DNA of 64,000 nucleotides from an uncultured delta proteobacterium (GTDB lineage Bacteria; Desulfobacterota; Binatia; Binatales; Binataceae), in contig CAWJET010000001.1 of NCBI GenBank assembly GCA_963842085.1, positions 1,632,001 through 1,696,000 on the forward strand, read 5' to 3'. Below are positions 8,614 to 17,393 of the stretch, piece after piece. Under the pieces are notes generated by a model that was given only the letters and a program-made list of their open reading frames with translations, did no database searches and was not told the origin of the DNA. The stretch's first letter is position 1. The number at the start of each line of letters is the position of its first letter. A program made the position numbers and the translations under genes.

Positions 8614-8628
8614 ATCACCGGCGATGTC

Positions 8629-8826
8629 CTGAAACCCCGGAAAAGAGTGTCAGTTGCTGTCAGTACTCAACGGTTGCGAATCACCATTGCCGATTCGTGG
8701 AATCTTTCCGGTCTTTTCCATGGGAAAATTCGGCCAAAGTGCGCCAGAAGGTCGGCTTTCACAGGTGTTGTGCTGTAGGCTAGTGACGATCACTGACAGC
8801 AACTGACGGTCTTTTCCGGGGTTCAG
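8629..8826. repeat. ~35-bp imperfect inverted repeat (arms 8629-8664 and 8792-8826); candidate origin or element end
   Basis: CTGAAACCCCGGAAAAGAGTGTCAGTTGCTGTCAGT versus reverse complement CTGAACCCCGGAAAAGACCGTCAGTTGCTGTCAGT (2 mismatches, 1 gap). Confidence 0.85.
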
Positions 8827-10489
8827 AAGCAGAGACCAGGGAGACTAGGCGTCTGCCGCGGATATCGGCGCGGCTGAACTGAATGTCGATTCCGACTGCG
8901 CGCAGGTTGCTTGCCATGCGCCGCAGCGCGCTGCCGAGCGCACTCGGCGCCTTGGGCCAGCGCACCGAGCGGCGCACGCCTTCGCTCTTCATGCGGTTGA
9001 GCCGGTCATACAGTTCTGCGACTGTCCCGCTAAAGCCCTCGTTGGCCAGTTCGGCCACCGGTTCGTACAGCAGCGACGACTCAAGTGCCAGGTTGTGTGT
9101 CTCGGTGCGGTTGGACTGGTAGGCAGTCATGGCCTCGCCTGGTTTCATTCCGAGGCTCTCTTCGCACGCCTTTACCCAGAGCGCGAAGTCGGCCATCCGC
9201 GGCGGCTGCTCGAGCGTGACGTTGGGCAGATTCCCAAGTCCGGCCACAACGGCATCGAGCAGGGCGCCGAGGATCCGCGGCCTTACCTCTTCGAATTCGC
9301 GCCAGAACTGCGCCTCGTCGCGGCGCATCTCGGGCTTCATGTCGAGGAACTCCACGATCACCGCGCGATCCAGAAAATCGGGCCGCGCGGCACCCAGGTC
9401 GGGAATCGCATTGAACACAATGGGACGGGTAGCGTCGAAGGTCGCTTCGTCATGATCGCTATAGAGTTCCCGGCCACCGAAACCGCCGCCGGTGGCTAGT
9501 CGGCAAGCTGCGTCGGCGAGTTCCTCTGGCAGGTGGCTCAAGTTATCGAAGCATACGATCCACGAATTCCTTGCCGCCGCGGTCAGATCGCGAACTTCAC
9601 GGGGTACGCCCCGCAGTGCCCCGGTGCGCGGGTCGATCAGCGCGCTCATTATTCTGCACGCGGTCGTCTTGCCAGCTCCCTGCTCACCCTTGGCGACCAG
9701 GATAGGGCAGGGCACGCCCGGACGTAGCGCCGCGACCAGAAAGGCCTTGATCAGCGTCCAGCCCTGGTGGTCGACGTTCAGGAAGCGGCGCAGTTCGTCG
9801 AGACCGCCGCCCCGCTCGGGTGGGGGCAGCGGGCGCGAACCACGTGTCCGATGAAATCTCGGCGGCGGTCGGTCCACTATCCGCCAACCGTCGGCGTCGA
9901 TTTCGATCGCCCGCCAAGCGCGATCGCACAGGTCGAGATAGAGTTTCTGCCGATGATTCGCGACCCGGATATTGATGGGAGACTCCTCGCCGTCAAAAAG
10001 GGCCTTGGCCTCGAACAGGTCCAGCGCGGCGCGGATGGCTTGTGCGCCCGGGCTGTTGCCGGTCTCCCGGTAATAGGTTCGCAACAGGAAGAGTTGGAAC
10101 GGGCGGGAGCGGATCGGGTGATTCTCGAAGTGCCCATCGACCCGAACCGAAGCCCAGCCGTGCTGGTCGGGGTCGTGAAAGAACTCGATTCCAGAATCGA
10201 GCACAAGTCCAATCAGTCTGTCCGCAGCGGACCCGCCGTCGCCGCGCTCCAAGGGCAGCGGAGCGCCGAGCATATGCTCGATCAGGTCGGCTTTTTCGTA
10301 CTTCTCCAGAATCCTGCGCCAGTGTTGCCACGTGAGCGGATCCCCGCGCCTGACCGCTGCGAAGGAGAGTACCGCCTCGGTCGAGACCAGCCGCTCGGGC
10401 TCTTCTGCGACTAGCGGCTCAAGTTCGCGCAGGAACAACAGAGCCAGCTCGACCGCGATGGTGCGGGATGATTCGCCTGCCGCACTCAT
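8780..10489 (-). CDS. Phage/plasmid-type P-loop ATPase (putative replicative helicase)
   Basis: Walker A GEQGAGKTT, Walker B-like IVCFDNLS, LATGGGFGGRELYSD, PRMADF. ATG at 10489 abuts the HNH stop. Confidence 0.8.
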   Translation of the reverse strand: MSAAGESSRTIAVELALLFLRELEPLVAEEPERLVSTEAVLSFAAVRRGDPLTWQHWRRILEKYEKADLIEHMLGAPLPLERGDGGSAADRLIGLVLDSGIEFFHDPDQHGWASVRVDGHFENHPIRSRPFQLFLLRTYYRETGNSPGAQAIRAALDLFEAKALFDGEESPINIRVANHRQKLYLDLCDRAWRAIEIDADGWRIVDRPPPRFHRTRGSRPLPPPERGGGLDELRRFLNVDHQGWTLIKAFLVAALRPGVPCPILVAKGEQGAGKTTACRIMSALIDPRTGALRGVPREVRDLTAAARNSWIVCFDNLSHLPEELADAACRLATGGGFGGRELYSDHDEATFDATRPIVFNAIPDLGAARPDFLDRAVIVEFLDMKPEMRRDEAQFWREFEEVRPRILGALLDAVVAGLGNLPNVTLEQPPRMADFALWVKACEESLGMKPGEAMTAYQSNRTETHNLALESSLLYEPVAELANEGFSGTVAELYDRLNRMKSEGVRRSVRWPKAPSALGSALRRMASNLRAVGIDIQFSRADIRGRRLVSLVSASEPRKRPSVAVSDRH

Positions 10490-10491
10490 CT

Positions 10492-10989
10492 CTAGAATCT
10501 GGGAACCAGCTTTCTGGACTTGGCCCGGTTGCAGCGTCGGCACAGGGTTTGAAGATTCGATTCTTCGGTCTTGCCGCCCTTGCTGACCGGGACAATGTGA
10601 TCCATTTCCAGCAGGATCGCCCTCCGGCACTTTCGACATCGCCCGCCGTCGCGCACCAGCACTGTCGCCCGCATGCTGTCCGGTACGCGACGGTTCGCCA
10701 CGCGGTCCTGCCAGCTCGGCCTTTCCACCGCATCGAAGTCGACGAAGTCTGCGAACGCGCTCAAATCTAAAGGCTCGGTGGCGCCGATCAGACACTCCAA
10801 CTTTACGGGATTGTTGGGCAGGAGATTGTTCATGCGCGCCGAGAGCAGCAGCAGACAGATCAGGTGAGCCTTGCGGGCGTCGGGAAGCTGACGGAAACGG
10901 ACGTCGTTCAACAGATCGTAGGGCAGCCTGATCTCTCTGCGGGTGCGCTCGAACTGGCGGAAATTGTGAAAGCCGAAGAATTCCTGCAT
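10492..10989 (-). CDS. HNH endonuclease with an N-terminal phage replication-initiator-like helical domain
   Basis: VLVRDGGRCRKC...EMDHIVPVSKGG...NLQTLCRRCNRAK; N-terminus IRLPYDLLNDVRFRQLPDARKAHLICLLLL. Confidence 0.88.
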   Translation of the reverse strand: MQEFFGFHNFRQFERTRREIRLPYDLLNDVRFRQLPDARKAHLICLLLLSARMNNLLPNNPVKLECLIGATEPLDLSAFADFVDFDAVERPSWQDRVANRRVPDSMRATVLVRDGGRCRKCRRAILLEMDHIVPVSKGGKTEESNLQTLCRRCNRAKSRKLVPRF

Positions 10990-10996
10990 GACTGGT

Positions 10997-11875
10997 CTAT
11001 TGCTGGTTGGCCTCGATGAAGTTGATCTTTACGACCGCGACCGGCGGTTTTCGGTAGGGTTCGAGGTTGACGCCGCGGAGCTCCGGCACAGCAGCGTAAT
11101 CGACCGCGCCCTTGCGCGAGCTCTTCAGGACTTCGACGCCACAGCCATAAGTCCGCCGCGCCGTCGCCATGCACCGGAGCATTGCGCGCAGTCTTTGCTC
11201 CTCGGCTGCTGCGTTCTCCAGCCGGAGCCTGACTTCACGGTAACGCAGCGCGGCGTGACGCCATTTTGGCTCCGCGCTCAGATCCAGTTCCTCGTTGGCC
11301 AATTCGGGCCAGCGGTTTTCCTGCACCAGCTGCCAGAACGCGGCCTCTGCCTCTACCAGACGCTTCGCGTATTCCCGGTCGGGGCGTATTTCGACCAAGA
11401 CTCCGTCGGTCCCGTGGAAGGACCAGTAATGCGCCTGCTCTGCTCCGGAGACCTTCAGTTGATGCTGTAGTTGCGCATAGTACTGGGAGGGGATGCGACC
11501 TTGCTGTGCTGATAAACGATCTCCGAATCTGAGCGGGCACTTAATCTCCAGCAGTATGGAACCGTCGAAGCTGAGACCATCCAACGACGCCCGCATCCAC
11601 TCGAACTCCCCGTGGACCAGACACAGTGGCTCCATCTGGATTCCTGTTTGTCGCTCGTACGCCTTACGCGCGAAGCGCTCCATTTCGCGACCGCGTCGCG
11701 CTGCTGGACCCGCCGCAGCTTCCTGCATCAGCCCGGTTTTTATCGACCACAGCATTCTCGGGGTCTTGAACGCAGTCTCGCCCATGATCACCGGAGCGTC
11801 GCTGGCTCCAATCCCCTGCGTGCGCCAACGATGCCACTCGGGGGTGTTCTGATGCAGCGGCTCAATCCGGGGCAT
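10997..11875 (-). CDS. YqaJ-like viral recombinase / lambda exonuclease family
   Basis: QNTPEWHRWRTQGIGASDA, ASLDG, LEIKCP, YYAQLQHQL. Confidence 0.93.
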   Translation of the reverse strand: MPRIEPLHQNTPEWHRWRTQGIGASDAPVIMGETAFKTPRMLWSIKTGLMQEAAAGPAARRGREMERFARKAYERQTGIQMEPLCLVHGEFEWMRASLDGLSFDGSILLEIKCPLRFGDRLSAQQGRIPSQYYAQLQHQLKVSGAEQAHYWSFHGTDGVLVEIRPDREYAKRLVEAEAAFWQLVQENRWPELANEELDLSAEPKWRHAALRYREVRLRLENAAAEEQRLRAMLRCMATARRTYGCGVEVLKSSRKGAVDYAAVPELRGVNLEPYRKPPVAVVKINFIEANQQ

Positions 11876-12971
11876 GAACCGTCTCCTGATTGCCGCGTTT
11901 GGCCAGTTTGCGATTGAGCACTTCGACCGCGCGCCGGTAGGTCGTTTCGGTCATTTCGCCCAGTGAAGCGACCTTGTAGTAGGCCAGCACCCGTTCGAGA
12001 TCAGTATTGGTGTCGTTGATCAGTTGCTCGAGTTCGCGAACCTCTTCGGCATTGATCGGGCGAGGGGAATTGGGCGTGGCGCAGCGACCATCCGCCCGTT
12101 CGTCTTCCGGGTCGTCGCCGGTGGCCAACAGAAACGATTGCAGCAGCGCGTACTTCAACGCCCCAGTCATCGCCTTGTAGGGCGCCTTGTCGCCCGGATC
12201 GAGTCCCTGGCCCGCGACCTTGGCGATCACTTCTTCGCCGCTGTCGACGTCGGCGAAGGTGTAGGCCATCACGACCCGCGCCATACGCGTGGTCTCGCCG
12301 CGACCCGTCGCCGACTCGTATTCGATATTCTCGAGGCACGGGATCACGACCACGCCCAGCTCGGAGAGGAGGTCGCCGACCGAGCCGGCGATGTCGGCGG
12401 CGGTAACGTAACTGTAGTTGAAACGCTCGTTGTGACCGCGCTTCTGGACGTAGCCGATGCGGCGGCGAACTTCGGCGAGCTTCTGCCGGAGGTTCAGCCG
12501 CACCGGATCTTCGGGAGCGGCGCCGTTGAAAGTCGAGGCGCTCGTCTCGACGGCAGCGGGTGCTTCCGCCGGGCGCGCGTCGGGCTTTGCAGTCACGACC
12601 TGCAACGCTTGCTGCTTACTCCTGCTGCTTCGATTCTTTTTCAAGAGCCGCTTGGCGCCGCTTCTTTTTCCGTTCGCCTGCCCTTCCTTCAGCGAAGCCT
12701 CGAGCAGCACCTCGAGCTCGGTCTTCTCCCGCTCCGCCAGATGCTCGACCGCGATCGGCTTCGTCTCGCCCTTGTCCGCTAGCTGATAGACCTTTCCTTC
12801 TTCGTCCACGTAAATTCCCTCCTGTTGATTGATGCTCGTTACCGGTCGGCCGAGCAGTATATGGACTTCTTCGTGGTTTGCTGTACTGACCGGAAACCAC
12901 TTTTTTGGTTCGGTTCCGCTTTCGAGGAGCACACAAAGAAATCGGTCGCGATAGTCCAAGCTAGCCTTCAT
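11862..12971 (-). CDS. ERF-family single-strand annealing protein with a ~150-aa N-terminal extension
   Basis: VQKRGHNERFNYSY, GQGLDPGDKAPYKAMTGALKYALLQSFLLATGDDPE (ERF signature). Confidence 0.92.
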   Translation of the reverse strand: MKASLDYRDRFLCVLLESGTEPKKWFPVSTANHEEVHILLGRPVTSINQQEGIYVDEEGKVYQLADKGETKPIAVEHLAEREKTELEVLLEASLKEGQANGKRSGAKRLLKKNRSSRSKQQALQVVTAKPDARPAEAPAAVETSASTFNGAAPEDPVRLNLRQKLAEVRRRIGYVQKRGHNERFNYSYVTAADIAGSVGDLLSELGVVVIPCLENIEYESATGRGETTRMARVVMAYTFADVDSGEEVIAKVAGQGLDPGDKAPYKAMTGALKYALLQSFLLATGDDPEDERADGRCATPNSPRPINAEEVRELEQLINDTNTDLERVLAYYKVASLGEMTETTYRRAVEVLNRKLAKRGNQETVHAPD

Positions 12972-13076
12972 TTCGCCTCCGGCGTGATGCGCCTTCTTCC
13001 TCGACGATTGGCGTCGTTTCCGAATCCTGTTCTTACGCTCTGCTATATTACTAGAAGGTACACTACGAAGGAATAC

Positions 13077-13670
13077 CTAAAAGGAATATGGTGCAACGAA
13101 GATCGGCGGAGGGGAGAACGTGGCCAAGGTCAGGCTGTGGGGTTTCCGTTGCGAGCGGTGCGGGCACAAATGGTTGCCGCGAGAAACCGGCAAAGAACCG
13201 CGAGTTTGTCCCCGCTGTAAATCTCCGTACTGGAACCGGCCCAGGAGGAATCCGAAACCGGCCGGCAGATGATACTCTGTTGGATGAACAACGGTCACTG
13301 CGCTTCGGCCGTTGTTTCGCATCTCCCGATGCGCCCCCCTCGAATCTGCGTTTGGTTCGTGCTCCTTCCCGCCTTTCAACGAAGCCTCCAGTAGCACCTC
13401 GAGTTCGGTTTTCTCCCTCCCCGGAAGATGCTCGACCGCTATTGGCTTCGTCTCGCCCTTGTCCGCCAGCTGAAAACCGTTCCCTTCTTCGTCCACGTAA
13501 ATTCCCTCCTGCAGATTGACGCTCGTGACCGGTCGGCCGTGGAGCGTTTGGGCTTCGGCGTAGTCCGCCTTGCGGACCGGAAGCCACTTCGGCGGCGCCC
13601 CGGTCGTACCGTCCTTTTCTTCGACGACATAGAGAAAATCGTCCCTGTACTCGAGGGTTGTCTTCATCAT
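13077..13670 (-). CDS. Hypothetical protein, paralog of the ERF N-terminal extension
   Basis: First ~100 aa align with ERF residues 1-97 (GRPVTSxNxQEGIYVDEEG..QLADKGETKPIAVEHL..REKTELEVLLEASLK). GGAGG RBS. The 3' part overlaps the Zn-ribbon gene in antisense. Confidence 0.75.
   Translation of the reverse strand: MMKTTLEYRDDFLYVVEEKDGTTGAPPKWLPVRKADYAEAQTLHGRPVTSVNLQEGIYVDEEGNGFQLADKGETKPIAVEHLPGREKTELEVLLEASLKGGKEHEPNADSRGAHREMRNNGRSAVTVVHPTEYHLPAGFGFLLGRFQYGDLQRGQTRGSLPVSRGNHLCPHRSQRKPHSLTLATFSPPPIFVAPYSF
13120..13272 (+). CDS. 50-aa zinc-ribbon protein (missing from the ORF track)
   Basis: GTG start after GGAG; MAKVRLWGFRCERCGHKWLPRETGKEPRVCPRCKSPYWNRPRRNPKPAGR, with two CxxC motifs. Confidence 0.8.
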   Translation: MAKVRLWGFRCERCGHKWLPRETGKEPRVCPRCKSPYWNRPRRNPKPAGR

Positions 13671-14054
13671 GCTGCCTCCATTGCGAATTTATTGAACGCT
13701 GGCTGTTCTCGGCGGCGCCAACTCTAATTACTCAAAGTTCAGCTGAGTTTCTCGTGGCTCTTCTTTAGTCTTGTCTGAACCATCGCACCGATTTGCGCCG
13801 GGTAATGTTAAATATATAGGACATTCGGCTTTGAATCAAGTGGCGATTTACGGTAGATTTCATGAATGAATTTGGGTATGAGCAACTGTGGCGCACGCCA
13901 CGGCGATATTAATTGTCCTATGTATGCTACTATTTCAGTTTCTGGAAGTTCAAAGCAGCATTTGAGTATCATCGAAGTGATGCCTAAACTGCCCTCCATG
14001 GGTCGGAAGAAAATCTCTGCTCGACCTACAGGTAAACGGGCGGAGAAGCCCAAT

Positions 14055-14264
14055 ATGGTGGCTGCCGCTGTCGAGCTCGCTGGCGGCGCGGCCGCAGTGG
14101 GTAAGCTATGCGGAGTTCGCCGGCAGTCCGTCTATTGGTGGATTAAAGAATGGAAGGTGGAGAGGCTGGTCGATGCCCTGAAGCTATCGCGTGCTTCAGG
14201 AATCCCAGTTGAAAAGTTTGCTGGCGAGATCGTCGACGCGGAACAGCTCAAGGAAATAAAATGA
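14055..14264 (+). CDS. Cro/YdaS-like HTH transcriptional regulator
   Basis: AVELAGGAAAVGKLCGVRRQSVYWW...LSRASGIPVEKF. Alternative starts at 13980 and 13998. Confidence 0.8.
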   Translation: MVAAAVELAGGAAAVGKLCGVRRQSVYWWIKEWKVERLVDALKLSRASGIPVEKFAGEIVDAEQLKEIK

Positions 14265-14394
14265 CCATTGCCCGCCGATTCCTCGCCAGGTCACTTTGCT
14301 GACAAGCGTTCCAGGACCTTCGGTCGCAACTGTTACGTATATCCGTGTAGTAACACGTCGTGGTCGCGTGCGGTTGTGGATCTAGAGGCCTTAG

Positions 14395-15571
14395 GGAACC
14401 TCTGCACAGGTCGTCATACAGCGGCAGTTCGATATAGTAATGAGAGCTAAGAGCAGGAACGGCAGCAGCGCGTTGGGGTTGATCGTTGCTGGGAAGCGAT
14501 TAGGAGCATTGGGGAGCTGCTCGATCTTCTTCACAACCCGCAACTGGTCCCGACCGGGATCAACCGATACCGGACCCGGTAGAGATTGGCCAGCGCGAAC
14601 ATGGTCTGCGCCCGAGCCAGATTCTTGGCCAGCCCGCGATATCTCACCTTGCTGAAGCCCCACAACTGCTTGAGCACGCGGAAGGCATGCTCGCCGCAAG
14701 CGCGGGTGCGCGAACGCACCCGGTTGATCATCCGCCAGCGCTCGCTCAACGGGTGCCGGGGGGTAGGACGGCGATTGATCCGATAATGTATTCCCCGCGA
14801 CTCAAGGAACCTGCGGTCGTCTTCTTTCCAATACGCCTGGTCGCCGAACACCTCGCTTTCGTACCCGTGCAGCAGCTCCGGCAGCTGGGTGACATCGGCG
14901 ACCGCGGCGTCGGTCGCTCTTACGCTGTGGACGATGCCGCGCTTGTCTGCACCGATGTGCAGTTTCATCCCGAAGTGCCAGTTCCTGCCCTTGCGAGTCT
15001 GCTTCATCTCAGGGTCGCGCGTCCCACTGGCGTTCTTGGTGGGAACTGGGCGCTGCGATGATGGTCGCGTCCACAATCGTTCCCGAGCGCAGCAACAGGC
15101 CGCGGGCCTCGAGCAGGCCGCCGATCGCGTCGAAGATCGCTTTGGTAAGGTCGTGCCTTTCCAGCAGATGGCGAAAGCGCAGAATGGTGGTCTCATCCGG
15201 CACCACGTCGTCGCCCAGCTCCACCCGCGCAAACCGGCGCATCGACTCGCTGTCGTAGATCGCGTCCTCGGCCTGCGGGTCGGAGAGATTGAACCACTGC
15301 TGCAGGAAGTAGATGCGCAGCATCTTCTCCAGCCCCAGCGGCTGGCGGCCGTTGCCCGCTGTGGGATAGTGCGGCTCGATCAGCCGCAGCAGCCGCGCCC
15401 AAGGGATCACCGCGTCCATCTCGGCCAGAAACCGCTCGCGCCGGGTCACCTTGCCCTTCGCACTCCACGCCACCGAAGCAAACGTCTGCTGGCTACCCAT
15501 CACCGCACCTCCGCATCCGTCGATCGTCTGGTTCCTTTGTACACCAATCGATCAACTTGTGCAGAGGTTCC
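14395..15571 (-). mobile_element. IS5-family (IS5 subgroup) insertion sequence, 1177 bp
   Basis: 14-bp perfect TIR GGAACCTCTGCACA; TTAG duplicated at 14391-14394 and 15572-15575. Confidence 0.95.
14531..15503 (-). pseudogene. IS5 transposase split by a 1-nt insertion
   Basis: TRRERFLAEMDAVIPW...VDATIIAAPSS / TKNASGTRDPEM...HFGMKLHIG...VRYRGLAKN. Extra C in TCCCACC near 15040. Confidence 0.9.
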
Positions 15572-15658
15572 TTAGCGGCGAGTCCTTTCCATGTAAGGGT
15601 TCGGGCAAAAGCGATTGCCAGGCGCACGGCGGTGGTCCATCGCCGCTCGTGCGGAACG

Positions 15659-15757
15659 TTAAGAGCGCCCTCGAGGAGCATCCGATCTTCCCTTGCGCTC
15701 GAAAATGACTTCCAGATAGTCGCCTTCGGCGTCGCATCAGACCTTTACGTCTTTGCG
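15659..15757 (-). pseudogene. DUF2283-like fragment
   Basis: KDVKV*CDAEGDYLEVIFERK resembles KVWYDxEGDYLEV, with Trp changed to a stop. Confidence 0.55.
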
Positions 15758-15773
15758 CTAGATACCAGCCTCT

Positions 15774-16079
15774 TCAGGATTTCGCTCGTAGCCGGCGCTT
15801 CCAATAATCCGGCCGGCGGCGCAGGTGCATGACGGCGATCACAGACAGTTCCTCCGGACCGGACTGATACAAAATCGCAAACGGGAAGCGCTGGACGAGC
15901 CGGCGCCGGATCGTTCCCGTAAACAAGCTCCCGGCTTCGGGATTGGCGACGATCTGCGCCAACGTGTGCTCCACTTGCCGGATGAAATCCCCACCCAGGC
16001 CGCTGGCGCGCGCTTCGTAAAATTTGGTTGATTCGATGAGTTCACGTTCGCACAAGGGGTGAAAAACGACCCTGGTCAC
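15774..16079 (-). CDS. RelE/ParE-family toxin
   Basis: VFHPLCERELIES..FYE...RRRLVQRFPFAILY...VIAVMHLRRRPDYW; GTGA overlap with the antitoxin. Confidence 0.9.
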   Translation of the reverse strand: MTRVVFHPLCERELIESTKFYEARASGLGGDFIRQVEHTLAQIVANPEAGSLFTGTIRRRLVQRFPFAILYQSGPEELSVIAVMHLRRRPDYWKRRLRAKS

Positions 16080-16309
16080 CGAAGCGCCGCACGCGCCTTC
16101 CTGAGCGCTTTCTCGGCAGGAATTCCCTTGAGCCTGCCGCTGGCGATCTCTTCCGCGCGCCGCTCTGCCTCGGCAGCCCATAATCTTTCGGCATCCGGCT
16201 CGGCAGGTTCCTCCTCCAGGCTTGCGAGCAATCGTTCGGCCAGCCGCGCGCGCGAACGAGCGGGAAGCCTCATGGCCTGATCTTCAAGCTTCTTGAGTAC
16301 AGCGGGCAT
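16076..16309 (-). CDS. Putative addiction module antitoxin (TIGR02574-like)
   Basis: LPARSRARLAERLLASL...WAAEAERRAEEIASG...IPAE. Confidence 0.9.
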   Translation of the reverse strand: MPAVLKKLEDQAMRLPARSRARLAERLLASLEEEPAEPDAERLWAAEAERRAEEIASGRLKGIPAEKALRKARAALR

Positions 16310-16686
16310 GGTTCACCTCCTCGTTAATTGTTCGGGTTGATCATACCAGGCTTCGATGCGGCTGCCGCACATCGAACCCCATCTTGCAACTGCTTGCCGG
16401 ACCGCCTTACCGGCGGTTCGCTCGCCATATTCATGCTGACGTTTTTCGCAACCTTCTTGGAGAGGTCGCGCGTCCGCATGATCTCCGCGCGAATCTCGCC
16501 GGCCGAGACCCCCCCATGCCGCTGGCGGGCCGCGCCGAGCCATGTCGGCGCGGTGCAGGTCGCCGCCATAACGTGGATCAACCGGCCGACTCCGAACAGC
16601 CCTCAGCAAACCTCGCGCGCGGCCGCATGCCGAGAATTGATTTGTTGGAGAATGGCGCACGATCACAACTTGATTTCAGCAGCCAA

Positions 16687-17361
16687 CTATATTCTTCCCC
16701 CTCGCCAAATCACCTTACCCACCAAGATTCGATCAACCTCCGTCGCCTCCAGTTCCTCCGAAATTCCCGAACCGGTAACCACGAAACCCCGCTTGAGCCC
16801 AACTTGAACGCGTCTTATGGCCAGCCCCGTCGGTGCGGAAAATACATACAACCCCTCACCACGCGGCAATCTCTTGCCCGCGGACCGGTCCACCAATAAC
16901 AAATCCTGCGTTCTGATTTCGGTTGGAAGATCTCGGTCGGCCTCCAAAAGGAAGAGCTGCTCGGGTTCGCGGATACCGAGCGCCCGTTCGAGCCACGAGC
17001 GGCTGAACGGAAGAAGTGCGCGAATCTGCTCCATGTGCAGCGCCGCATGGATGTCGCGCAGTTCGACCATGGCCACATCGGCGAACGTCGCGCCCGGCGG
17101 CTGTCCGGCGGCTCTCATTTCACCCTGGCCCGTTGCCAGCCAGTCGACCGACACGTTGGCGGCGCGCGCGAGCTTAATCAGAATGTCGCTCCGCGGAGGA
17201 AGTTCTTGACGCGCATATTGCTGCAGGGTTGACTCCGGAACCCCCGAGGCCTTGGCTAGCCGGTACCGGCTGCCGAACTCCTTGACGAGCAGCGCGAAAC
17301 GAGCGGCAAACGAGCCGCGCTTTTGTTTGCCCCGACTACGACGTCGGCCGTTGTTTGACAT
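16687..17361 (-). CDS. CI-like repressor (XRE HTH plus degenerate S24 domain)
   Basis: LAKASGVPESTLQQY...LARAANVSVDWLATGQGEM; C-terminus DLLLVDR..GLYVF..VGKVIW. Confidence 0.85.
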   Translation of the reverse strand: MSNNGRRRSRGKQKRGSFAARFALLVKEFGSRYRLAKASGVPESTLQQYARQELPPRSDILIKLARAANVSVDWLATGQGEMRAAGQPPGATFADVAMVELRDIHAALHMEQIRALLPFSRSWLERALGIREPEQLFLLEADRDLPTEIRTQDLLLVDRSAGKRLPRGEGLYVFSAPTGLAIRRVQVGLKRGFVVTGSGISEELEATEVDRILVGKVIWRGGRI

Positions 17362-17393
17362 AGCTACGATATCCGTGGTACTTTGAGTAAAGA

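What the first reader, a model, noticed from the sequence alone, without database searches (positions are those of the whole stretch)
12680..13670. Unknown ~100-aa domain present twice: free-standing and fused to the ERF annealase
Seen: GRPVTS(I/V)N(Q/L)QEGIYVDEEG..QLADKGETKPIAVEHL..REKTELEVLLEASLK occurs in both genes. Many of the DNA differences between the copies are synonymous, which suggests selection on the protein. I do not recognise the domain, and ERF proteins normally begin with the annealing domain. Inference: ELEVLLEASLK followed by a Lys/Arg-rich stretch (GKRSGAKRLLKKNRSSRSK) recalls the DLMxALxxSL helix and basic tail of bacterial Ku, so it may be a docking module. The free copy could act as an adaptor or competitor.
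Basis: partly seen in the sequence, partly recalled or inferred. Interest (0 to 1): 0.7.

Follow-up and report, generated by a model that had tools for sequence, protein, structure and literature searches.

The report
ERF annealase N-domain plus truncated gene remnant
A soil bacterium's mobile-element recombinase (ERF) carries a conserved, uncharacterised small domain at its front end, and the apparently free second copy next door is most likely the leftover front end of a second recombinase gene cut off by a rearrangement.

Summary
ERF (11862-12971, minus strand) and ORF 13077-13670 (minus) share about 120 residues (61% identity, E 2e-42).

The shared part is an acidic, beta-rich domain of about 77 residues. 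It matched nothing in Pfam, PHROGs, NCBIfam, PDB or BFVD. A basic linker of about 80 residues, modelled at low confidence, joins it to the ERF core.

The fusion is the normal form. All 10 long database hits I scanned carry ERF downstream. All 11 matches in sister genomes lie in open frames of 308-417 aa. The family was found only in Binataceae genomes.

The free copy is best read as a gene remnant. Homology to ERF 5' ends stops at 13298, inside the linker. Homology to a zinc-ribbon gene region stops at 13288. The ORF's last ~70 residues are antisense to that zinc-ribbon gene and are not conserved. Contigs from 4 runs (2 studies) bridge the junction, so it is not an assembly artefact.

The remnant keeps its start codon, Shine-Dalgarno sequence and a promoter-like site, so a residual role is not excluded.

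The domain co-varies with the neighbouring cro-like gene, not with the ERF core, YqaJ, HNH or the 671-aa protein. The Ku resemblance was not supported. The domain's function is only inferred: a tethered docking module.

The parts
11862..12971 (-). Full-length ERF annealase gene (369 aa) with the N-terminal domain
   Evidence: ORF. Pfam ERF 7.8e-15 at residues 162-300. PHROG 155 'Erf-like ssDNA annealing protein' 2.1e-32.
12741..12971 (-). N-domain core, ERF residues 1-77: acidic and beta-rich, with no known family
   Evidence: AF2 pLDDT 85-88 over residues 1-60, with strands at 2-8, 11-18, 21-30, 43-48, 53-56, 61-63 and 74-76. Conserved L5, L12, C13, W25, P27, G41, R42, E51, G52, Y54, D56, E57, G59, L64, G68. 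pI 5.2.
12501..12740 (-). Linker, ERF residues 78-157: a partly conserved helix at 85-94, then a basic, low-confidence stretch
   Evidence: pLDDT below 50 for residues 94-155. pI 9.5. Length and sequence vary between relatives but stay in frame.
12120..12500 (-). ERF core, residues 158-284
   Evidence: Pfam ERF. AF2 gives helix, three long strands, helix. Mean protein distance among 13 loci is 0.09.
11868..12068 (-). C-terminal helical domain of ERF, residues 302-368
   Evidence: AF2 helices at 308-321, 325-331 and 342-363, pLDDT 77-89.
13298..13670 (-). The 'free copy': the first ~124 codons (N-domain plus part of the linker) of a second, type-B ERF gene, cut in the linker
   Evidence: blastn homology to ERF 5' ends of other loci starts at 13298-13299 (L023, L011, L024). 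It runs on through the start codon into the upstream region and cro gene of L015/L021 (13350-14050). It clusters with L004, L015, L017 and L026 in the tree.
13077..13297 (-). Non-homologous tail of the 197-aa ORF, reading through the junction antisense to the zinc-ribbon gene
   Evidence: This frame is closed by a stop in 4 of 4 other close zinc-ribbon loci (L002, L018, L019, L020) and is open only here.
13289..13297 (.). Junction between the zinc-ribbon/ERF module (type A) and the truncated ERF/cro module (type B)
   Evidence: Homology on the zinc-ribbon side ends at 13272-13288 and on the ERF 5' side begins at 13298. Contigs of 4 runs from 2 studies bridge it with no mismatch. An 8-bp inverted repeat lies at 13287-13294 and 13309-13316.
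13120..13272 (+). Small zinc-ribbon gene (50 aa, GTG start, two CxxC pairs), divergent from ERF
   Evidence: Pfam Zn_ribbon_8 8.1e-5, below the curated cut-off. NCBIfam FmdB-type zinc ribbon 8.6e-5, below cut-off. Intact at 78-84% identity in L002, L009/L018, L010/L020, and partial in L019 and L026. dN/dS 0.07-0.18.
13811..13839 (-). Promoter-like site upstream of the truncated copy
   Evidence: TTGATT-17-TATATT, 9 of 12 matches. This is a consensus match only. GGAGG lies 5 nt before the ATG at 13670 (read).
13866..14264 (+). cro-like HTH gene, probably starting at 14001
   Evidence: Pfam HTH_29 8.3e-4 and YdaS_toxin 2.3e-3, both below cut-off. Found divergent from ERF in most related loci.
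10997..11875 (-). YqaJ-type exonuclease; its start overlaps the end of ERF by 14 nt
   Evidence: Pfam YqaJ 3e-29. Conserved directly downstream of ERF in related loci.
10492..10989 (-). HNH endonuclease
   Evidence: Pfam HNH 6.2e-14.
8780..10795 (-). 671-aa ORF (probably starts further in, near 10491) with a P-loop-like motif and no family match
   Evidence: No Pfam or PHROG hit. Only weak ABC-ATPase P-loop matches in NCBIfam. Conserved downstream of HNH in related loci.
16687..17361 (-). CI-like repressor of the type-B immunity module
   Evidence: Pfam Phage_CI_repr 9.9e-8. 78% identical to the CI next to the cro-like gene in L004.

Best explanation
The shared segment is a real protein domain. 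It is an acidic, beta-rich fold of about 77 residues that forms the normal N-terminus of a Binataceae-restricted lineage of ERF single-strand annealing proteins. A mostly basic linker of about 80 residues, modelled at low confidence, tethers it to the ERF core.

In evolution the domain travels with the neighbouring variable cro/CI module. It is reassorted independently of the ERF core, YqaJ, HNH and the 671-aa protein, with the module boundary lying in the linker.

The 'free-standing' copy is not a separate gene family. It is the first ~124 codons of a second (type-B) ERF gene. That gene was broken in the linker and joined 17-25 bp downstream of the zinc-ribbon gene of a type-A element. The likely cause is a deletion or illegitimate recombination between two related elements.

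The remnant keeps its Shine-Dalgarno sequence, start codon and native upstream region. It may therefore still be made as the N-domain plus an unrelated tail.

Inferred, not shown: the N-domain is a tethered protein-docking or targeting module. Its partner would lie in the immunity module or the host rather than among the downstream recombination and replication genes.
For: Real domain. The search found 105 representatives at E <= 1e-3. 98 of them align to this ERF protein. dN/dS is 0.17-0.34 across all ten pairs of the five in-genome copies. AF2 pLDDT is about 86 over residues 1-60, with the same strands from two different alignments.

The fusion is the norm. 10 of 10 long hits carry Pfam ERF downstream. 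11 of 11 matches in six sister genomes lie in open frames of 308-417 aa. 19 of 20 ORFs tested give 366-400 aa reaching the ERF C-terminus. 99 of the 120 closest ERF-core relatives are 340 aa or longer.

The free copy is a remnant. The homology boundaries are 13288 and 13298. Homology continues from the fragment through its upstream region into the cro-like gene of L015/L021. The tail frame has a stop in 4 of 4 other loci. The zinc-ribbon gene normally sits between cro and ERF (L009/L018, L019, L026).

Other broken forms exist in the family: L005 (a CGA-to-TGA change in the linker), L028, L012, P0076 and P0086.

The junction is not an artefact. Contigs X2 12803-13404, X3 12750-13409, X5 12750-13404 and X4 12632-13600 cross it with 0 differences.

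Module behaviour (Mantel tests). N-domain against ERF core r=0.07, YqaJ r=-0.11, HNH r=-0.17, 671-aa protein r=0.00 (13 loci). N-domain against cro r=0.70, p=0.0002 (13 loci).

Charge. The N-domain has pI 4.5-5.2 in 20 of 21 proteins. The linker has pI above 8 in 16 of 21.
Against: Against a dead remnant: the fragment has no stop or frameshift in its ~124 homologous codons. Its singleton codon changes within its clade are 3 synonymous to 0 non-synonymous, which is no worse than intact relatives. Its terminal branch is short. It keeps a good Shine-Dalgarno sequence and a promoter-like site. A second locus in the same genome (L005) also yields a stand-alone N-domain ORF through a stop in the linker.

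These points fit a recent break equally well, and the counts are small.

The N-domain/cro correlation may reflect nothing more than physical linkage. In the set, which includes distant loci, the N-domain against ERF core gave r=0.45 (p=0.06). The independence from the ERF core is therefore clearest among the close loci.

No experiment or prediction here shows any binding partner, so the docking function is inference only.
Confidence: 0.7

Rival explanations
1. The free copy is a functional stand-alone gene kept by selection. It could be a competitor or dominant-negative form that occupies the N-domain's partner, or an adaptor.
For: The N-domain reading frame is intact, with a Shine-Dalgarno sequence and a promoter-like site. 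Singleton changes are 3 synonymous to 0 non-synonymous. The arrangement is present in contigs of 4 runs from 2 studies. A second stand-alone N-domain ORF arose through a nonsense codon in L005.
Against: Among the 24 occurrences examined, the two N-domain ORFs not continuous with ERF are both in this genome. The break lies where other rearrangements also fall. The last ~70 residues are antisense to a conserved zinc-ribbon gene and are closed by a stop in 4 of 4 other loci. Pairwise dN/dS cannot separate past selection from present selection.
Confidence: 0.17
2. The N-domain is an intramolecular regulator. The acidic domain would act as a DNA mimic or autoinhibitor, folding back on the basic linker or the ERF DNA-binding surface until released.
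For: The domain is acidic (pI 4.5-5.2 in 20 of 21) and sits next to a basic linker. The hairpin E51-G52-x-Y54-x-D56-E57-E58-G59 is highly conserved and acidic.
Against: The N-domain does not co-vary with the ERF core of its own protein among close loci (r=0.07). That is unexpected for a specific intramolecular interface, although the ERF core is nearly invariant. No contact information was obtained from the full-length model.
Confidence: 0.12
3. The duplicated arrangement is an assembly chimera, caused by four paralogous elements in one genome.
For: The genome has four ERF modules at about 85% DNA identity.
Against: Contigs from 4 runs of 2 studies cross 13289-13297 with at least 100 bases on each side and no mismatch. 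One of the studies may be the source of the assembly.
Confidence: 0.02
4. The helix plus basic tail is a Ku-like docking motif linking ERF to the host end-joining machinery.
For: The host encodes one Ku. Its C-terminus has a short amphipathic helix followed by basic residues. By eye this resembles ERF residues 85-120.
Against: BLASTP found no alignment at E <= 100. The helix is absent from the distant full-length members L013, L014, P0034, P0035, P0061, P0071 and P0072. Its residues are conserved in only about 55-75% of the family.
Confidence: 0.03

Closest known systems
ERF-family single-strand annealing proteins (Pfam PF04404; phage P22 Erf as the type, recalled) paired with a YqaJ-type exonuclease
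   Same: The ERF domain scores above the Pfam cut-off. PHROG 155 matches. A YqaJ exonuclease gene overlaps the end of ERF. The genes sit in a CI/cro-type early region.
   Different: This lineage carries an extra N-terminal domain of about 77 residues plus a linker of about 80 residues ahead of the ERF core. Neither Pfam nor PHROGs models them. The lineage was found only in Binataceae genomes.
Lambda Red-beta architecture: annealing domain, flexible linker and a small partner-binding domain
   Same: Both have a globular module tethered to the annealing core by a flexible linker. In Red-beta the small domain binds lambda Exo and host SSB (passages read in PMC11611040).
   Different: In Red-beta and RecT the partner-binding domain is C-terminal and helical. 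Here the extra domain is N-terminal and beta-rich, and this ERF also has its own C-terminal helical domain. No partner has been shown.
A single blade of NHL or other beta-propeller repeats
   Same: Four NHL-repeat proteins were weak hits (E 4e-5 to 6e-4) to residues 38-72, the G-x-Y-V-D-x-x-G-N-V-Y hairpin. The best structural rows are single propeller blades, Z 4.0-4.5 with 40-47 residues aligned.
   Different: The Pfam NHL model does not hit the domain (0 families for P0001, and TEN_NHL in 1 of 100 members at E 0.036). The Z values are below the range the tool calls meaningful. A lone blade is not a propeller.
Gene remnants left by module exchange in mosaic temperate phages (general knowledge, recalled)
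   Same: A truncated 5' gene fragment sits at the boundary between two modules of different ancestry, with its native upstream region retained.
   Different: Here the break lies inside a two-domain gene at its linker. The remnant therefore happens to encode a complete domain.

Membership tests
ERF superfamily (PF04404) | Profile match above the curated cut-off | tested here: met
   55.6 bits against a cut-off of 25, residues 162-300. There are four such genes in the genome.
ERF superfamily (PF04404) | Rad52-like beta-beta-beta-alpha annealing core | tested here: inconclusive
   The AF2 model shows helix 189-204, strands 207-223, 226-241 and 247-258, and helix 263-281. No fold search was run on this model.
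ERF superfamily (PF04404) | ssDNA annealing activity and ring oligomers | not testable with these tools
   This needs biochemistry.
Any characterised domain family, for residues 1-100 | Significant match in sequence or structure libraries | tested here: not met
   Pfam 0 hits. PHROGs best E 0.39. NCBIfam 0. PDB sequence profile 0 at E <= 10. Foldseek PDB best E 0.69. BFVD best E 0.21.
Bacterial Ku C-terminal helix plus basic tail | Sequence similarity to the Ku C-terminus | tested here: not met
   No BLASTP alignment at E <= 100 with the genome's own Ku. The helix is not conserved across the family.
NHL repeat / beta-propeller blade | Pfam NHL match, or a repeated blade forming a propeller | tested here: inconclusive
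   The Pfam NHL model gave no hit for the domain. Weak reciprocal phmmer hits exist to four NHL proteins. Structural Z is 4.0-4.5 to single blades.
EF-P / eIF5A (the name one source gives to relative P0346) | Match to EF-P family models | tested here: not met
   NCBIfam gave 0 families for P0346 at E <= 10. No EF-P family appears among the 25 families listed in the Pfam tally of 100 members (42 matched in all). No EF-P chain appears in the listed fold-search rows.
Truncated gene remnant (for the free copy) | Homology to full-length relatives ends abruptly, and the downstream domains are missing | tested here: met
   Homology ends at 13298. No ERF core follows. Unrelated zinc-ribbon-module DNA follows instead.
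Truncated gene remnant (for the free copy) | The reading frame beyond the break is not conserved | tested here: met
   A stop occurs in that frame in 4 of 4 other zinc-ribbon loci.
Truncated gene remnant (for the free copy) | Relaxed selection after the break | tested here: inconclusive
   3 synonymous and 0 non-synonymous singleton changes, which is too few to judge. Branch models were not available.

The most novel reading that the evidence does not exclude
The N-domain may be a specificity module of the immunity region that is physically tethered to the recombinase. It could recognise the element's own repressor/Cro system or a host factor, and so decide where or when ERF acts. If so, truncated stand-alone copies (this one, and the nonsense-split L005) would act as decoys that block the ERF of competing sister elements in a genome carrying four such elements.
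Probability: 0.08. Interest if true: 0.65.

Novelty: new variant of a known kind. Interest (0 to 1): 0.35.

Why it matters
ERF annealases have no solved structure, according to the review passages I read (PMC11611040). How they are recruited to partners is poorly known. Here a conserved, well-modelled extra domain is tethered to the annealing core and swapped together with the immunity region. That gives a concrete handle for asking how an ERF is targeted.

It also defines an unnamed domain family of about 100 representative clusters, plus a compact element abundant in soil Binataceae: CI, cro, ERF, YqaJ, HNH and a 671-aa P-loop-like protein.

The practical lesson is narrower. A 'free-standing paralogue' next to a fused gene can be a recombination scar. 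Here the break fell in an interdomain linker, so the scar looks like an intact small gene.

Tried and rejected
Complex prediction of YqaJ (alignment A4) with the N-domain (alignment A2) gave score 0.00 in both runs. The tool's verdict was 'no answer' and the controls were not folded. This is no evidence either way.

RNA evidence: no RNA holder was listed among the 10 runs found, so expression of the fragment is untested.

Protein atlas: the best rows were unnamed clusters at 0.88-0.90 with low recognition, which is uninformative.

P0051 (3151 aa, 25 stretches) looked like a giant repeat relative. It is a Glu/Lys/Gln-rich coiled-coil repeat protein with no real similarity, so I rejected it as compositional. 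P0090 and P0095 were also dropped as non-family hits, and P0095 was not inspected further.

Alternative fusion partners. P0086 carries a LuxR-type HTH at its C-terminus. The stretch between it and the partial N-domain looks out of frame, so I read it as a broken locus. P0076 is an in-frame deletion joining ERF to the 671-aa protein. P0015, P0043, P0048, P0056 and P0062 look like frameshifted ERF genes. No convincing second partner was found.

The EF-P/eIF5A name on P0346 was not reproduced.

PHROG and Pfam scans of larger ORFs to the right of CI found no phage structural genes and no integrase. I therefore cannot call the element a prophage.

The terminator scan was at chance level (2 found, 1.5 expected).

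Literature: two full-text searches and passages of PMC11611040 and PMC8093625 showed no description of an N-terminal domain on ERF. These searches were narrow and do not show that it is unpublished. Supplementary files were not consulted.
Full report
OBSERVATION

The window carries two minus-strand ORFs: 11862..12971 (369 aa) and 13077..13670 (197 aa). BLASTP aligns their first ~120 residues at 61% identity (75 of 122, E 2e-42). The DNA alignment shows a core about 90% identical with more diverged flanks.

Pfam finds ERF at residues 162-300 of the long protein. It finds nothing in its first 100 residues or in the short ORF. PHROGs agrees: phrog_155 matches residues 157-360, and the N-terminal part has no hit better than E 0.39.

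THE DOMAIN IS A FAMILY AND THE FUSION IS ITS NORMAL STATE

The genome itself has five copies of the segment and four ERF genes.
- Three copies head intact ERF genes: the window gene, L002 and L004.
- One (L005) heads an ERF gene split by a single in-frame CGA-to-TGA change in the linker.
- One is the short ORF of the finding.

An exhaustive HMMER search with residues 1-100 found 105 representative proteins at E <= 1e-3, and 61 at E <= 1e-10. Of these, 98 align to the window ERF protein, mostly as fragments. The other 7 are:
- a compositionally biased coiled-coil repeat protein (P0051);
- four NHL-repeat proteins that match only residues 38-72;
- two further non-family hits.

All 10 long hits that I scanned have Pfam ERF downstream of the domain.

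In 40 related genomes the domain was found in 6 of 24 other genomes of the same genus. It was found in 0 of 16 genomes from other families of the class. All 11 matches there lie in open frames of 308-417 aa.

A scan of one genome per species returned 15 loci. All are from MAGs titled Candidatus Binataceae or 'uncultured delta proteobacterium'.

I tested 20 ORFs for continuity from the domain's start. Five loci appear twice in that set because two tools fetched them. Of the 20, 19 give 366-400 aa ending in the conserved ERF C-terminus, and one (L012) is frameshifted.

Of the 120 closest relatives of the ERF core, 99 are 340 aa or longer. About 9 of the shorter ones begin in or just after the linker.

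ANATOMY OF THE PROTEIN

AlphaFold2 gave the same picture with two different alignments (100 sequences for residues 1-100; 21 full-length sequences).
- Residues 1-76 form a beta-rich domain, with strands at 2-8, 11-18, 21-30, 43-48, 53-56, 61-63 and 74-76. pLDDT is 85-88 over residues 1-60 (78 for 61-70).
- Helix 85-94 is modelled at low confidence.
- Residues 94-155 have pLDDT below 50.
- The ERF core (helix, three long strands, helix) follows.
- A C-terminal helical domain at 305-363 ends the protein.

The most conserved positions are L5, L12, C13, W25, P27, G41, R42, E51, G52, Y54, D56 (97%), E57, G59, L64 and G68.

The ELEVLLEASLK helix is conserved at only about 55-75%. It is missing from the distant full-length members.

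The domain is acidic, with pI 4.5-5.2 in 20 of 21 proteins. The linker is basic, with pI above 8 in 16 of 21.

No library recognises the fold or the sequence:
- Foldseek against PDB: best E 0.69.
- BFVD: best E 0.21.
- VIA-align against 48,161 chains: no Z >= 5; the top rows are single propeller blades at Z 4.0-4.5.
- PDB sequence profile: nothing.
- NCBIfam: nothing.
- Pfam on all 100 family members: only ERF, in 16 members, plus scattered noise.

The NHL-like hairpin (G-x-Y-V-D-x-x-G-N-V-Y) is the only recurring weak resemblance. I treat it as a resemblance at motif level.

WHAT THE FREE COPY IS

In related loci the gene order is CI, a divergent cro-like gene, sometimes a small zinc-ribbon gene on the cro strand, then N-domain-ERF, YqaJ, HNH and a 671-aa protein.

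In the window, blastn maps two blocks that meet in a 9-bp interval.
- The first block covers ERF's upstream region plus the zinc-ribbon gene. Its homology (L002, L010, L020, L009/L018, L019) ends at 13272-13288.
- The second block is homologous to the 5' ends of ERF genes. It begins at 13298-13299 (L023, L011, L024).
- The second block continues through the fragment's start codon into the upstream region and the cro-like gene of L015/L021 (13350-14050).

The short ORF is therefore the first ~124 codons of a second ERF gene. That is the N-domain plus the first two thirds of the linker. The fragment is still attached to its own regulatory region and cro-like gene, and it is joined 17-25 bp past the stop of the zinc-ribbon gene. 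In the tree it groups with the 'type B' N-domains of L004, L015, L017 and L026, whereas the window's intact ERF groups with 'type A'.

The remaining ~70 residues of the 197-aa ORF run antisense through the zinc-ribbon gene. That frame carries a stop in 4 of 4 other close loci. The zinc-ribbon frame is intact in all five and has dN/dS 0.07-0.18.

A deletion between two adjacent related elements would produce exactly this arrangement. So would an illegitimate exchange of the immunity module. An 8-bp inverted repeat (13287-13294 and 13309-13316) overlaps the junction. Whether it played a part is unknown.

The junction is not an assembly error. Contigs from four runs of two studies cross it without a mismatch: X2 12803-13404, X3 12750-13409, X5 12750-13404 and X4 12632-13600. 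One of the two studies may be the source of the assembly.

IS THE REMNANT STILL USED?

The evidence cuts both ways.

For use:
- It has GGAGG 5 nt before its ATG.
- It has a promoter-like site at 13839-13811.
- It has no disabling mutation.
- Its singleton codon changes within its clade are 3 synonymous to 0 non-synonymous. Intact relatives show 4:1, 4:5, 4:5 and 2:2.

Against use:
- The two N-domain ORFs not continuous with ERF both occur only in this genome.
- Its tail is accidental.
- The family shows many other scars: the L005 nonsense codon, a truncated ERF beside an inverted second copy in L028, a frameshift in L012, a deletion joining ERF to the 671-aa protein in P0076, and a broken locus in P0086.

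Pairwise dN/dS of 0.17-0.27 for the fragment mostly reflects history before the break. I put a retained function at about one in six.

MODULE BEHAVIOUR AND LIKELY ROLE

Among 13 loci the N-domain is the most divergent segment, with a mean protein distance of 0.39. The ERF core is at 0.09, HNH at 0.10 and YqaJ at 0.13.

Its distance matrix is uncorrelated with the ERF core (r=0.07), YqaJ (-0.11), HNH (-0.17) and the 671-aa protein (0.00). Those downstream genes correlate with one another at r=0.28-0.73.

By contrast it correlates with the adjacent cro-like gene (r=0.70, p=0.0002, 13 loci). In that test the window's cro was paired with the fragment. That set includes distant loci, and there the N-domain against ERF core gave r=0.45 (p=0.06).

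The linker therefore behaves as a recombination boundary inside the gene, and the N-domain belongs to the variable cro/CI module. This may be plain linkage. It does argue against a specific co-evolving contact with YqaJ, HNH or the 671-aa protein.

The architecture is a folded acidic domain on a long flexible basic tether. My best inference is a docking or targeting module whose partner lies in the immunity region or the host. A rival is autoinhibition of DNA binding. Neither is shown.

In Red-beta the partner-binding domain is C-terminal and binds both the exonuclease and SSB (passages of PMC11611040). This ERF has its own C-terminal helical domain that could play that part.

THE KU IDEA

The genome has one Ku gene. 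Its C-terminus does have a short amphipathic helix followed by basic residues. However, BLASTP of ERF residues 78-125 against it gives nothing at E <= 100, and the helix is not a conserved feature of the family. I reject the analogy as a basis for function.

VERDICT

This is a genuine, unnamed N-terminal domain on a lineage-restricted ERF annealase, which makes it a new variant of a known kind. Beside it lies a recombination scar that mimics a free-standing paralogue. Interest is moderate to low. The domain is worth a structure and an interaction screen, but nothing here points to a new kind of system.

Noticed in passing
window 8620-17380; also L002, L004, L005 (G000 C2:1441405-1444701, C2:1313422-1316730, C1:2520849-2524178): A compact module recurs four times in this genome at about 85% DNA identity over about 4.2 kb. 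It comprises a 671-aa P-loop-like protein, HNH, YqaJ and ERF, with a cro-like gene at three of the four loci and CI confirmed at two. It is abundant in soil metagenomes: 1314 YqaJ relatives at E <= 1e-10. I found no integrase or phage structural genes next to it, so what kind of mobile element it is remains open.
   Followed up: partly
L005 1870-1872 (G000 C1, near 2522720): A single CGA-to-TGA change in the ERF linker splits that copy into a 123-aa N-domain ORF and a 247-aa ERF ORF. The downstream part is otherwise intact.
   Followed up: yes
window 14531-15503, minus strand: A DDE transposase lies between the cro-like gene and CI, which are adjacent in L004. It is split into two overlapping ORFs: DUF772 9.5e-22 and DDE_Tnp_1 4.2e-21. 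Part of the element (14392-14518) is 98% identical to a site near the C2 copy.
   Followed up: partly
window 15774-16309, minus strand: A 77-aa 'Unstab_antitox' addiction-module component (3.7e-13) overlaps a 135-aa ORF with no family. Together they look like a toxin-antitoxin pair inserted between cro and CI.
   Followed up: no
window 13287-13294 and 13309-13316: An 8-bp inverted repeat (AACAACGG / CCGTTGTT) overlaps the junction of the rearrangement. It may be chance.
   Followed up: no
L028 4001-6059; proteins P0076, P0086: Other scars occur in the family. L028 has an ERF truncated after about 60 residues of the core, next to an inverted YqaJ-ERF. P0076 is an in-frame ERF/671-aa deletion fusion. 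P0086 is a partial N-domain ORF running into a LuxR-type HTH.
   Followed up: partly
L002 2299-3002 and L005 493-1017: Similar alpha/beta-hydrolase-like sequences lie just beyond the regulatory end of two copies of the element. The one in L002 appears to be broken across frames. This could be a preferred insertion target or part of the element.
   Followed up: no
window 13120-13272: In this locus the zinc-ribbon protein has Trp where four relatives have Ser (residue 7). That change removes the antisense stop codon that would otherwise end the remnant ORF about 14 codons earlier.
   Followed up: partly
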